Positions 33,696 to 35,220 of a DNA stretch of 38,243 bases are shown one piece after another (within the stretch, counting starts at the first letter, position 1; each line of letters opens with the position of its first letter). Origin of the DNA: a virus (Duplodnaviria > Heunggongvirae > Uroviricota > Caudoviricetes); IMG/VR virus record IMGVR_UViG_2721755660_000008, positions 1 through 38,243 of that record; one strand, 5' to 3'. Under the pieces are notes generated by a model. The model saw only the letters and a program-made list of their open reading frames with translations. It made no database searches and was not told where the DNA came from. The position numbers and the translations under genes are program-made.

Positions 33696-34403
33696 ATGGA
33701 TTTGAACAAATTCGATGAGCCATTCAGCCCTGAAGATATCGAATGGCGAATACAGCAAAGCGGTAAAACACGCGATGGCAAGGTGTGGGCTATGGTGCTG
33801 GCTTATGTCACGAACCGGGCAATCATGAAACGCCTGGACGATGTTTGCGGCAAAGCAGGATGGCGCAATGAATACCGCGATATTCCCAACAACGGCGGCG
33901 TTGAATGCGGCATATCAATAAAGATTGATTCCGAATGGGTAACCAAATGGGATGCTGCTGAAAACACGCAGGTAGAAGCCGTCAAAGGTGGTCGTTCCGG
34001 TGCAATGAAGCGCGCTGCCGTTCAGTGGGGAATCGGTCGGTATCTGTATAACCTTGAGGAAGGTTTCGCACAAACATCTCTCGATAAAAAGCAGGGGTGG
34101 CACAGGGCAAAACTGAAGGATGGAACAGGATTTTACTGGCTCCCTCCATCGCTTCCGGGATGGGCAATCCCAGCATCAGATAACAAACCATCACCAGAAA
34201 ATACCAACCAGAAATCTCCATCGGTTGACTGCGAACAAATCCTGAAAGACTTCAGCGATTATGCGTCAACAGAAACTGACAAGAAAAAACTCATCGAGCG
34301 TTATCAGCGTGACTGGCAATTAATGGCTGGCAATGAGGATGCGCAGGCTAAATGCGTTCAGGTAATGAACATCAGAGTTAACGAACTAAAACAGGCGGCA
34401 TAA
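33696..34403 (+). CDS. Rad52-family single-strand annealing protein
   Basis: 235 aa; motifs VLAYVTNRAIMKRLDDVCGKAGW and GAMKRAAVQWGIGRYLYNL resemble the Rad52 N-terminal domain. Confidence 0.7.
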   Translation: MDLNKFDEPFSPEDIEWRIQQSGKTRDGKVWAMVLAYVTNRAIMKRLDDVCGKAGWRNEYRDIPNNGGVECGISIKIDSEWVTKWDAAENTQVEAVKGGRSGAMKRAAVQWGIGRYLYNLEEGFAQTSLDKKQGWHRAKLKDGTGFYWLPPSLPGWAIPASDNKPSPENTNQKSPSVDCEQILKDFSDYASTETDKKKLIERYQRDWQLMAGNEDAQAKCVQVMNIRVNELKQAA

Positions 34404-34910
34404 ATGGCAAGCAGAGGCGTAAATAAGGTGATTATCCTTGGTCGGGTAGGACAAGACCCGGAAGTTCGATACTCACCATCAGGAACAGCGTTCGCTAACC
34501 TGACAATAGCCACGTCAGAACAATGGCGAGATAAAAATACTGGCGAGCAAAAGGAATTGACTGAATGGCATCGTGTTGCTGTATCCGGGAAACTGGCTGA
34601 GGTCGTGGGGCAGTATGTGAAAAAAGGTGATCAGATTTATTTCGAGGGAATGCTGAGAACCAGAAAGTGGAAAGACCAGTCAGGGCAAGACCGTTACACA
34701 ACCGAGGTTCATGTCGGAATTAATGGCGTGATGCAAATGCTTGGCGGAATTGGCGACAGCAAACAACAAGCAGCCAGCAGGCAATCACAGAAGCCACAGC
34801 AGCAATCATCACCAGCACAACACAACGAACCTCCGATGGATTTTGACGACGATATCCCATTTGCACCAGTAACTCTCCCCTTCCCTCGTCACGCTATTCA
34901 CGCAATTTAA
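34404..34910 (+). CDS. ssb: Single-stranded DNA-binding protein SSB, with 15-aa extension after the DDDIPF tip
   Basis: [23 protein letters not shown]...[15 protein letters not shown]...[11 protein letters not shown]-fold; C-terminus ...[26 protein letters not shown]. Confidence 0.9.
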
Positions 34911-34923
34911 TCAGGAGAAAATC

Positions 34924-35220
34924 ATGCCAGCGCCTCTGTATGGTGCGGATGACGCGCGCCGCTGTTCCGGCAATTCCGTATCGGAGGTGCTGGATAAATT
35001 CAGAAAAAACTACGATCGAATAATGTCTCTACCGCAGGAAACGAAAGAGGAAAAGGAATTTCGCCACTGTATATGGCTTGCAGAGAAAGAAGAACGCGAG
35101 CGAATTTACCAGACATCAATCCGACCATTCCGCAAAGCCACATATACCCACTTCCCTGAATATATCGACCCGCGCCTGCGTAATTACCGCTCACGCTATG
35201 GCGCTATCAGTAATGACTGA
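34924..35220 (+). CDS. Hypothetical ea-region protein, 98 aa
   Basis: ORF with GGAGA RBS after ssb. Confidence 0.5.

What the first reader, a model, noticed from the sequence alone, without database searches (positions are those of the whole stretch)
34404..34910. Phage SSB with a 15-residue extension masking the canonical DDDIPF C-terminal tip
The protein is a clear SSB with the acidic tail ...[11 protein letters not shown], but the ORF continues for 15 more codons ([15 protein letters not shown]) before the stop. In E. coli SSB the free C-terminal DDDIPF mediates partner binding, so an extension could alter or abolish those contacts (a possible decoy), or may reflect loss of the original stop codon.
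Basis: partly seen in the sequence, partly recalled or inferred. Interest (0 to 1): 0.4.

Follow-up and report, generated by a model that had tools for sequence, protein, structure and literature searches.

The report
Phage SSB with capped C-terminal tip
This phage single-stranded-DNA-binding protein really carries 15 extra residues after the usually terminal DDDIPF docking motif; the cap is a conserved, widespread and apparently undescribed feature of phage and prophage SSBs, not an error or a lost stop codon.

Summary
ORF 34404-34910 (+) encodes a 168-aa SSB: OB fold, disordered linker, [11 protein letters not shown], then [15 protein letters not shown] and a stop. It lies between a Rad52-type annealase and Abc2 in a P22/HK620-like phage.

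The stop-loss or sequencing-error reading is refuted.
- The same cap occurs in HK75, mEp235, mEpX2, epsilon34, ECP1 and CP-1639, and about 300 of 5,426 complete E. coli genomes hold most of this gene.
- About 110 of the 120 nearest protein clusters across Enterobacterales carry it. It is always 15 aa, with conservative changes and pN/pS of about 0.35.
- IPF-[AS]P-short-tail caps also occur in Pseudomonas (9 or 11 aa), Rhizobiales (APEWR) and other lineages.
- In a sample of viral contigs encoding FDDDIPF, about 26% of protein clusters are capped.

Curated SSB models end at IPF, no PDB chain holds the cap, and I found no paper describing it.

In Sf6, Huey and IME10 an HNH homing-endonuclease gene sits exactly between the F153 and A154 codons.

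The function is inferred, not shown. The cap most likely removes the free carboxylate that host partners anchor and adds a lineage-specific second motif, which would retune partner choice.

The parts
34404..34910 (+). ssb gene, 168 aa plus TAA stop: a Rec-module SSB of the HK75/mEp235 type
   Evidence: ORF list. Pfam PF00436 E = 1.6e-36. phrog_44 E = 1.6e-66. 99.2-99.4% nt identity to the ssb genes of mEp235, HK75 and mEpX2.
34419..34715 (+). OB-fold ssDNA-binding domain (residues 6-104)
   Evidence: Pfam match to residues 6-104. In the AlphaFold2 model the block-mean pLDDT is 75-90 over residues 11-100, with the beta strands and one helix of an OB fold.
34743..34829 (+). Intrinsically disordered Q/P-rich linker (about residues 114-142)
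   Evidence: pLDDT is below 50 for residues 114-168. These columns are highly variable in the 64-sequence alignment.
34830..34862 (+). Canonical SSB-Ct acidic tip [11 protein letters not shown] (residues 143-153)
   Evidence: Read from the sequence. Identical to the E. coli SSB C-terminus in PDB 1eqq/4mz9. Curated SSB profiles end here.
34863..34907 (+). 15-residue cap [15 protein letters not shown] (residues 154-168), followed by TAA at 34908-34910
   Evidence: About 110 of the 120 nearest clusters carry it, always at 15 aa. pN/pS is about 0.35-0.40 across 15 Enterobacterales-type sequences. It is predicted disordered and does not dock on its own OB fold.
34862..34863 (+). Empty insertion site of the phrog_2340 HNH endonuclease cassette, between the F153 and A154 codons
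   Evidence: Alignment of the window and ECP1 (empty) against Huey and Sf6 (occupied). Some alleles keep the Ala codon, reading ...PDE|APVTL. Occupied alleles have a recoded tip, NFDDSDIPF or NFDDEIPF.
33696..34403 (+). Rad52/22-family single-strand annealing protein. Its TAA stop abuts the ssb ATG. Its last 55 aa form a P22-Erf-type C-terminal domain.
   Evidence: Pfam PF04098 E = 5e-26. phrog_1097. The C-terminal domain is shared with an ERF-type annealase (38% identity, E = 1e-12) and with P22 Erf (77% identity).
34924..35220 (+). abc2 (anti-RecBCD), the downstream partner gene of the Rec module
   Evidence: Pfam PF11043 E = 4e-61.

Best explanation
The 15 residues are a genuine, selected C-terminal cap on a phage recombination-module SSB.

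Shown: the cap is an old, length-invariant peptide under protein-level purifying selection. Its consensus is [AS]P-[VI]-[TG]-L-[PQ]-[FY]-P-x-H-x-I-[HY]-x-[ILV]. It belongs to a broader class of phage and prophage SSBs in which DDDIPF is followed by [AS]P and a lineage-specific tail of 4-16 aa. It is predicted disordered. It is native to ssb rather than to the HNH gene that shares it in Sf6 and Huey.

Inferred mechanism: the peptide bond after F153 removes the free alpha-carboxylate that SSB-interacting proteins clamp with a basic residue. That turns the SSB-Ct from a strictly C-terminal motif into an internal one. The tail adds a second short linear motif. The phage SSB would then dock poorly on the host's carboxylate-dependent partners (such as ExoI, RecQ, PriA, chi and RecO) and would instead engage a partner that reads tip plus cap together. 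This would reserve phage SSB-coated ssDNA for the phage's own recombination and replication pathway. The identity of that partner is unknown.
For: - Reality and spread. The ORF and its domains are confirmed. The identical cap occurs in HK75, mEp235, mEpX2, epsilon34, g341c, NM-3, ECP1, HZ41 and CP-1639, even where ssb is only 73% identical. 303 of 5,426 complete E. coli genomes hold at least 80% of the gene.
- Selection. About 110 of 120 nearest 90%-identity clusters, from Klebsiella, Citrobacter, Enterobacter, Salmonella, Kluyvera, Pluralibacter and Phytobacter, carry a 15-aa tail with conservative variation. pS is 0.67 against pN 0.24-0.27 over 15 sequences from different species.
- Class. 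A scan of species-representative genomes for DDDIPF[AS]P gave 110 short-tail ORFs, 81 of them confirmed as OB-fold proteins, with lineage-specific tails of fixed length. 118 of 120 Pseudomonas relatives end AP[LM]H[HY]LAGA. A sample of viral contigs encoding FDDDIPF, not selected for what follows it, gave 79 canonical and 28 capped clusters.
- Modularity. Tip plus cap also occurs on proteins with no Pfam domain and no PF00436 SSB match (P0138, P0133, P0136, P0126).
- Native to ssb. HNH relatives elsewhere end right after the HNH motif, and the phrog_2340 profile ends 16 residues before the C-terminus of Sf6 gp26.
- Disordered motif. pLDDT is below 50 for residues 114-168 and there is no self-docking.
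- Carboxylate dependence. [quoted passage not shown] The same is true of the other solved partner complexes, from my own knowledge.
- Precedent. The last six residues of HK620 SSB are needed for work with its cognate annealase (PMC5928155).
Against: - No binding, genetic or structural data exist for any capped SSB. Lambdoid 'SSB-1' proteins are stated to be unstudied experimentally (PMC12315714).
- The tip DFDDDIPF stays almost invariant in capped proteins. That is unexpected if it were simply silenced, and it would fit equally well a pro-form that is later cleaved at F|AP.
- Only [AS]P is common to all lineages. The rest of the tail differs completely between lineages, which argues against a single shared partner.
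- Phages whose ssb has been uncapped by the HNH insertion (Sf6, Huey, IME10) are viable, so the cap is dispensable for growth.
- No neighbouring gene tracks the cap. Capped SSBs sit beside Rad52-like, ERF, Sak4-like or RecT annealases. The Erf-type annealase C-terminal domain occurs with capped SSBs, canonical SSBs and no SSB at all.
Confidence: 0.5

Rival explanations
1. Pro-peptide. The cap is removed by an endoprotease at F153|A154-P155, releasing a canonical free DDDIPF tip at a chosen time or place. The tail serves only as the recognition or handle sequence.
For: The only feature shared by all cap classes is [AS]P immediately after IPF, which is the pattern expected of P1'-P2' residues at a cleavage site. 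The tip itself remains perfectly canonical in capped proteins. Uncapped derivatives function in viable phages.
Against: No protease with this specificity is known to me. None is encoded consistently next to capped ssb genes. Tails are under sequence and length constraint within lineages, which is more than a disposable pro-peptide would seem to need.
Confidence: 0.15
2. Turnover tag. The mostly non-polar C-terminal end (..HAI, ..YAI, ..AGA, ..NII, ..SVM) is a degron for cytoplasmic AAA+ proteases that limits the level or lifetime of the phage SSB.
For: Most cap classes end in aliphatic residues. From my own knowledge, non-polar C-termini and MuA-like ..KAI ends are ClpXP or tail-specific degradation signals.
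Against: Some classes end polar or charged (APEWR, APHFDGQF). A degron does not explain the invariant [AS]P or the conserved internal positions (L158, H163, I165). This was not tested.
Confidence: 0.1
3. Scar or neutral read-through. The extension is left over from deletion of the HNH gene seen in Sf6 and Huey, which fused ssb to the last 14 HNH codons, or it results from a mutated stop codon. On this view it has no function.
For: The window's last 14 residues are identical to the C-terminus of the Sf6 and Huey endonuclease. phiKp_30 shows that the HNH gene does decay by internal deletion.
Against: HNH relatives in other contexts lack the tail, and the family profile stops before it. Capped SSBs are far more diverse and widespread than HNH-occupied alleles. 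Tails diverge mostly synonymously and never change length. Some HNH alleles retain the Ala codon of 'AP' at the junction, which marks insertion into a pre-existing capped gene.
Confidence: 0.03
4. Nucleotide-level constraint. The 45 bp are kept because they are a homing-endonuclease target or flank, or a translational-coupling element for the downstream gene, and not for the peptide they encode.
For: The 45 bp are nearly invariant among E. coli and Salmonella phages even where ssb is only 73% identical. The HNH cassette inserts at its 5' edge.
Against: Across genera the DNA varies freely at synonymous sites while the peptide is kept. The tail is followed by two unrelated downstream genes, abc2 or a DnaQ-like exonuclease, each with its own ribosome-binding site after the stop. 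Other lineages have unrelated tails.
Confidence: 0.05
5. Sequencing or assembly error in this window.
For: None.
Against: The identical reading frame occurs in many independently sequenced phages and in hundreds of genomes.
Confidence: 0.01

Closest known systems
E. coli chromosomal SSB (PDB 1eqq/4mz9; TIGR00621, PRK09010)
   Same: Same N-terminal OB fold, disordered Q/P-rich linker and identical acidic tip [13 protein letters not shown].
   Different: In E. coli SSB the phenylalanine is the last residue, and partners bind its free carboxylate. Here 15 more residues follow. The gene is a phage Rec-module paralogue.
Lambdoid Rec-module 'SSB-1' proteins (Sf6 gp27, ES18 gp48, HK75-type modules; Genome Res 2025, PMC12315714)
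   Same: [quoted passage not shown]
   Different: Sf6 and ES18 SSBs end at ..IPF because an endonuclease gene follows. The HK75/mEp235/epsilon34/ECP1 type, like the window, is capped. The paper does not mention the cap and says these SSBs are unstudied experimentally.
HK620 SSB (HkaK, 'SSB-2') and its C-terminal NDYPPF tail (PMC5928155)
   Same: A phage Rec-module SSB whose C-terminal peptide mediates work with the cognate annealase.
   Different: It has an unrelated fold family and a free C-terminal motif, with no canonical tip and no cap.
Genes split by homing-endonuclease insertion (for example the phage Aeh1 nrdA 'genes-in-pieces' case; from my own knowledge)
   Same: In sister phages a free-standing HNH gene sits inside the 3' end of ssb. 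It supplies a stop for the upstream part and reads into the remaining host codons.
   Different: Only 14-15 codons are split off, and the SSB body keeps a complete canonical tip. The window itself carries the uninterrupted allele.
Beta-clamp-binding hexapeptides (QLxLx[LF], e.g. Hda QLSLPL, Pol IV QLVLGL; from my own knowledge)
   Same: P-V-T-L-P-F, and the broader P-[IV]-G-L-Q-[YF], place hydrophobic residues at positions 2, 4 and 6, as the hexapeptide motif does.
   Different: The leading Gln is absent. The other cap classes (APLHHLAGA, APEWR) do not fit. This is a resemblance only and was not tested.

Membership tests
Bacterial SSB family (PF00436 / TIGR00621) | N-terminal OB-fold ssDNA-binding domain | tested here: met
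   PF00436 E = 1.6e-36 over residues 6-104. TIGR00621 E = 4.5e-49. The AlphaFold2 OB fold has a block-mean pLDDT of 75-90.
Bacterial SSB family (PF00436 / TIGR00621) | Intrinsically disordered linker followed by an acidic tip D-F-D-D-D-I-P-F | tested here: met
   Residues 114-142 have pLDDT below 50. [11 protein letters not shown] lies at residues 143-153.
Bacterial SSB family (PF00436 / TIGR00621) | The tip is the extreme C-terminus, so Phe carries a free alpha-carboxylate for partner docking | tested here: not met
   Fifteen residues follow F153. All curated SSB profiles end at residue 153.
Bacterial SSB family (PF00436 / TIGR00621) | Homotetramer that binds ssDNA | not testable with these tools
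   Only a monomer model could be made.
Lambdoid Rec-module SSB-1 (HK75-type module: annealase, SSB, anti-RecBCD) | Located between the annealase and abc2 in the early-left operon of a lambdoid or P22-like phage | tested here: met
   Rad52-like gene at 33696-34403, ssb at 34404-34910, abc2 at 34924-35220. The window matches HK620/Sf6-type phages. The module type is described in PMC12315714.
Capped SSB-Ct class (defined in this report) | IPF immediately followed by [AS]P | tested here: met
   F153-A154-P155 in the window. [AS]P was also seen in protein sets retrieved without any constraint on the tail.
Capped SSB-Ct class (defined in this report) | Short tail (4-16 aa) of fixed length within a lineage, under purifying selection | tested here: met
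   15 aa in all Enterobacterales relatives. pN/pS about 0.35. 9 aa in 117 of 120 Pseudomonas relatives, with one further cluster carrying an 11-aa tail.
phrog_2340 HNH endonuclease cassette (Sf6 gp26 type) | HNH-type ORF (..HHCDYSKP..WLC..CH..WH..) between ssb and abc2 | tested here: not met
   The window has only 13 nt between the ssb stop and the abc2 start. It aligns as the empty site against Huey and Sf6. The shared 14 aa lie outside the HNH family profile.
Beta-clamp-binding motif | Q-L-[SD]-L-F or Q-L-x-L-x-[LF] | tested here: inconclusive
   PVTLPF fits positions 2, 4 and 6 but lacks Gln. No binding or complex prediction was possible.

The most novel reading that the evidence does not exclude
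IPF-[AS]P caps define a previously unrecognised, widespread class of mobile-element SSBs, about a quarter of viral proteins that carry FDDDIPF. In this class the universal SSB-Ct docking motif is deliberately made internal and joined to a lineage-specific second motif. On this reading it is a general phage strategy to rewire the SSB interaction hub. It could insulate phage ssDNA from host nucleases, helicases and SSB-sensing defence systems, or recruit a host factor such as the sliding clamp. It would also set SSB-annealase compatibility in recombineering.
Probability: 0.3. Interest if true: 0.75.

Novelty: new variant of a known kind. Interest (0 to 1): 0.55.

Why it matters
The free C-terminal DDDIPF of SSB is treated as a near-universal docking handle for at least 17 genome-maintenance proteins. 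It is also a drug target and a design rule for portable recombineering systems. A large, conserved class of phage SSBs that keep the handle but block its carboxylate would show that the hub can be re-addressed by a short appendage.

The question is directly testable. Peptide-binding assays, mass spectrometry of the native protein, and stop-codon knock-ins in HK75 or mEp235 would all address it.

Three further points follow.
- Phage SSBs are triggers of several defence systems: the DARNA, DRT10 and AbpAB papers seen here, plus Retron-Eco8 from my own knowledge.
- Rec-module partner specificity may depend on the cap.
- Automatic annotation (PGAP) labels these genes simply as 'ssb'.

The neighbouring HNH insertion gives a natural capped/uncapped allele pair for experiments.

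Tried and rejected
- **HNH-deletion scar.** This was my first working idea after seeing Sf6 and Huey. I rejected it for three reasons. HNH homologues elsewhere and the PHROG profile lack the tail. Capped SSBs are much older and more diverse than the HNH-occupied alleles. Some HNH alleles keep the Ala codon at the junction.
- **Tail as a boundary sequence belonging to abc2 or P22 abc1.** A blastn search of the 50-nt tail found it only at the ends of ssb or of the HNH gene. It is followed by either abc2 or a DnaQ-like exonuclease.
- **Self-docking of the cap on the OB fold.** The AlphaFold2 monomer built from a 64-sequence alignment leaves residues 114-168 disordered.
- **Finding the partner by gene neighbourhood.** Neighbours are highly mosaic, and capped SSBs sit beside Rad52-like, ERF, Sak4-like (AAA_24) or RecT annealases, YqaJ, RdgC or Abc2.
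- **Erf-type annealase C-terminal domain as a candidate partner.** It is enriched next to 15-aa caps (7 of 11 capped against 7 of 75 canonical). But it also occurs with genuinely canonical SSBs and in P22, which has no SSB, so the link is not exclusive and is confounded by phylogeny.
- **Tail-only profile search.** The tool used all 34 columns, so the tip contributed to the hits. It still revealed tip plus cap on non-SSB scaffolds.
- **Literature.** 'DIPFAP' has no hit in the paper library. Papers on phage SSB tails and lambdoid Rec modules do not mention the cap.
- **PDB.** Only the tip matches.
- **Caveat on the first tail scan.** The first viral-contig scan allowed only synonymous variants, so it cannot be used for selection. 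I replaced it with scans and protein searches that place no constraint on the tail.

Full report
**1. The observation**

The ORF at 34404..34910 on the + strand is 168 codons long and ends ...[28 protein letters not shown], followed by TAA.
- Pfam SSB (PF00436) matches residues 6-104 with E = 1.6e-36.
- The curated NCBI SSB models TIGR00621, PRK06341 and PRK06642 align up to residue 153 and end there. The 15 residues A154-I168 (nt 34863-34907) therefore lie beyond every known SSB profile.
- The gene sits in a recombination module. A Rad52/22-family annealase (33696-34403) has its TAA stop directly abutting the ssb ATG, and abc2 (anti-RecBCD, 34924-35220) follows 13 nt after the ssb stop.
- The window as a whole is a P22/HK620/Sf6-like phage or prophage.

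**2. Not an accident of this sequence**

The same 168-aa gene occurs at 99.2-99.4% nt identity in phages mEp235, HK75 and mEpX2, and at 88.8% in epsilon34, g341c and NM-3. ECP1, HZ41 and CP-1639 carry a different ssb allele (72-74% nt identity) with the same tail. Of 5,426 complete E. coli genomes, 412 have a match and 303 hold at least 80% of the gene. PGAP annotates it simply as ssb.

**3. The link to an HNH endonuclease, and its direction**

In Huey (98.6% identical flanks) and in Sf6, IME10, N7 and Bas106, ssb stops immediately after ..IPF. A 155-159-aa endonuclease gene (phrog_2340) lies between ssb and abc2, and its last residues are ..[18 protein letters not shown]. The Sf6 GenBank note already remarks on '14 contiguous amino acids identical to E. 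coli SSB'.

This could mean the window's tail is a deletion scar. The evidence points the other way.
- Homologues of the endonuclease in other phages end just after the HNH motif: Pectobacterium DU_PP_I at ...NNDPVY* and Vibrio 252E42.2 at ...GEGKNAL*. The PHROG profile ends at residue 143 of 159.
- Capped SSBs are far more diverse than the occupied alleles (see section 4).
- In some occupied alleles the junction reads ...PDE|APVTL with the Ala codon intact. The cassette therefore lies exactly between the F153 and A154 codons of a pre-existing capped gene.
- Among the viral-contig loci that carry the tail, 76 of the 95 empty alleles (80%) encode the tip [11 protein letters not shown]. Occupied alleles almost all encode ...NFDDSDIPF or ...NFDDEIPF, 20 of the 21 with a recognisable tip. 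This is the recoded-target and co-conversion pattern expected of a homing endonuclease.

Two further records fit this picture. phiKp_30 carries an internally deleted copy of the cassette. ES18 has an unrelated HNH gene at the same place, after an NFDDEIPF** end. The 3' end of ssb is thus an endonuclease landing site, and the window carries the uninterrupted allele.

**4. The cap is conserved and widespread**

A protein search with the window's SSB returned 120 top clusters at 90% identity. About 110 of them, from E. coli, Salmonella, Klebsiella, Citrobacter, Enterobacter, Kluyvera, Pluralibacter and Phytobacter, carry a tail after IPF that is always 15 residues. Examples of the conservative variation are [60 protein letters not shown] and SPVGLQYGKHRVYAL.

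For 15 Enterobacterales-type sequences retrieved without any constraint on the tail beyond AP, pS is 0.67 and pN is 0.24-0.27 in the tail. That is an uncorrected ratio of 0.35-0.40, or roughly 0.2 by my own Jukes-Cantor correction of those proportions. The peptide, and not merely the DNA, is therefore under purifying selection.

It yielded 110 ORFs with short tails, 81 of which were confirmed as OB-fold proteins using a deliberately narrow profile. The tails are lineage-specific.
- Enterobacterales: 15 aa.
- Alteromonadales and related lineages: 14 aa (APIGLQYPALLSVM).
- Pseudomonas: 9 aa (APLHHLAGA) or 11 aa (APISRLLLNII).
- Rhizobiales: 5 aa (APEWR).
- Psychrobacter: APHFDGQF.

Of the 120 nearest clusters to a Pseudomonas example, 118 are capped, nearly all with 9 residues.

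In a sample of viral contigs chosen only for encoding FDDDIPF, 84 hits stop after F and 34 continue for 25 residues or fewer, 21 of them starting AP or SP. After de-replication at 90% identity this is 79 canonical against 28 capped clusters.

A profile of tip plus cap also found the module on proteins with no Pfam domain (P0138, P0133, P0136, P0126). The broad core is IPF-AP-[IV]-G-L-Q-[YF].

**5. What is known**

- No PDB chain contains the cap.
- The string DIPFAP has no hit in the paper library.
- A 2025 survey of lambdoid Rec modules names the HK75-type module and says these SSB-1 proteins have not been studied experimentally. It does not mention the extension.
- Work on HK620 SSB shows that a phage SSB's last six residues are needed for cooperation with its annealase.

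**6. Mechanism**

Shown: the cap is predicted disordered and does not dock on its own OB fold. It is selected as a peptide. It is modular. It is not tied to one annealase family, since the neighbours include Rad52-like, ERF, Sak4-like and RecT annealases, YqaJ, RdgC and Abc2.

Also shown: the annealases next to 15-aa caps often share a 55-aa C-terminal domain with P22 Erf. That domain, however, also accompanies canonical SSBs and occurs in P22, which has no SSB.

Inferred: SSB partners anchor the terminal carboxylate. RecO Arg132 does so, and from my own knowledge ExoI, RecQ, chi and PriA do likewise. The peptide bond after F153 should therefore weaken canonical docking, while the tail supplies a second motif. 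My best reading is that the cap re-addresses the phage SSB away from host partners and towards an as yet unknown reader of tip plus cap.

Live alternatives are a pro-peptide cleaved at F|AP and a degradation tag. The pro-peptide idea is favoured by the universal [AS]P and the untouched tip. Scar, DNA-level constraint and sequencing error are effectively excluded.

**7. Verdict**

The 'lost stop codon' reading is wrong. The 'altered contacts' reading is plausible but unproven. The feature is a member of a conserved, common and apparently undescribed variant of the SSB C-terminus. I rate it a new variant of a known kind, of moderate to good interest, and directly testable.

Noticed in passing
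window 34862/34863; L001 (Huey) 1963-2445; L002 (Sf6) 1975-2463; L364 2959-3447: A free-standing HNH endonuclease gene (phrog_2340) is inserted exactly between the F and A codons of the tip/cap boundary in sister phages. It supplies the ssb stop codon and reads into the 14-15 cap codons. Occupied alleles have a recoded tip (NFDDSDIPF or NFDDEIPF), while most empty alleles encode DFDDDIPF. This is a homing-endonuclease signature.
   Followed up: yes
L005 (Klebsiella phage phiKp_30) 2351-2546: Decayed copy of the same HNH cassette. The start (MKICSRCH) and the 3' end ([17 protein letters not shown]..) are retained, but the middle is replaced or deleted. The region is unannotated in the record.
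   Followed up: partly
L009 (Vibrio phage 252E42.2) 572-1626: An HNH homologue (53% identity) also lies just downstream of an ssb gene. That ssb reads ...DFDDDRS*, followed in frame by GACATCCCGTTCTAA (DIPF*). The tip appears to be interrupted by a 9-nt insert carrying a stop codon.
   Followed up: no
L362 (phage ES18) 1801-2834: An unrelated HNH gene (T7 gene 7.7-like) occupies the same position, after an ssb that ends NFDDEIPF** with no cap remnant. The ssb 3' end seems to be a recurrent landing site for different endonuclease families.
   Followed up: partly
window 34233-34400 (last 55 aa of the annealase); L146: The Rad52-like annealase shares only its C-terminal 55 residues with an ERF-family annealase (38% identity, E = 1e-12) and with P22 Erf (77% identity). 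This indicates a shuffled C-terminal domain on non-homologous annealase cores. It is a candidate SSB-contact domain but is not exclusive to capped SSBs.
   Followed up: partly
window 34401-34406: The annealase stop TAA is immediately followed, in the same frame, by the ssb ATG (TAAATG), which suggests translational coupling. The same arrangement is seen in Sf6, Huey, epsilon34, ECP1 and ES18.
   Followed up: no
proteins P0138, P0133, P0136, P0126, P0140: Proteins with no Pfam SSB (PF00436) match carry the complete acidic tip plus an AP-[IV]GLQY-type cap. P0138, P0133, P0136 and P0126 have no Pfam match at all, and P0140 has only a weak sub-threshold one. They may be unrecognised ssDNA-binding or recombination proteins that use the same docking module.
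   Followed up: partly
L251 versus proteins P0131/P0132: Near-identical SSB C-terminal regions (..EFEFMNVNQQGQQQ..) exist in both canonical (..DDDIPF*) and capped (..DDDIPFSPIGLQYGKSRIYALS) forms. Caps are therefore gained or lost between close relatives.
   Followed up: no
L163 (Rheinheimera MAG) 5713 and 6261: Two capped SSB-type C-termini (APMGLECRRMLHCI and APMGLECWRMLHCV) lie about 550 bp apart on the same strand, which may be a tandem duplication.
   Followed up: no
L148, L175 (Gallionella): SSBs capped with APHGKNGAGVSWSAM or APMGKPGAGVSWRAM lie directly downstream of a 417-465-aa ORF that I provisionally read as reverse-transcriptase-like. No domain search was run on it, so that reading is unverified.
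   Followed up: no
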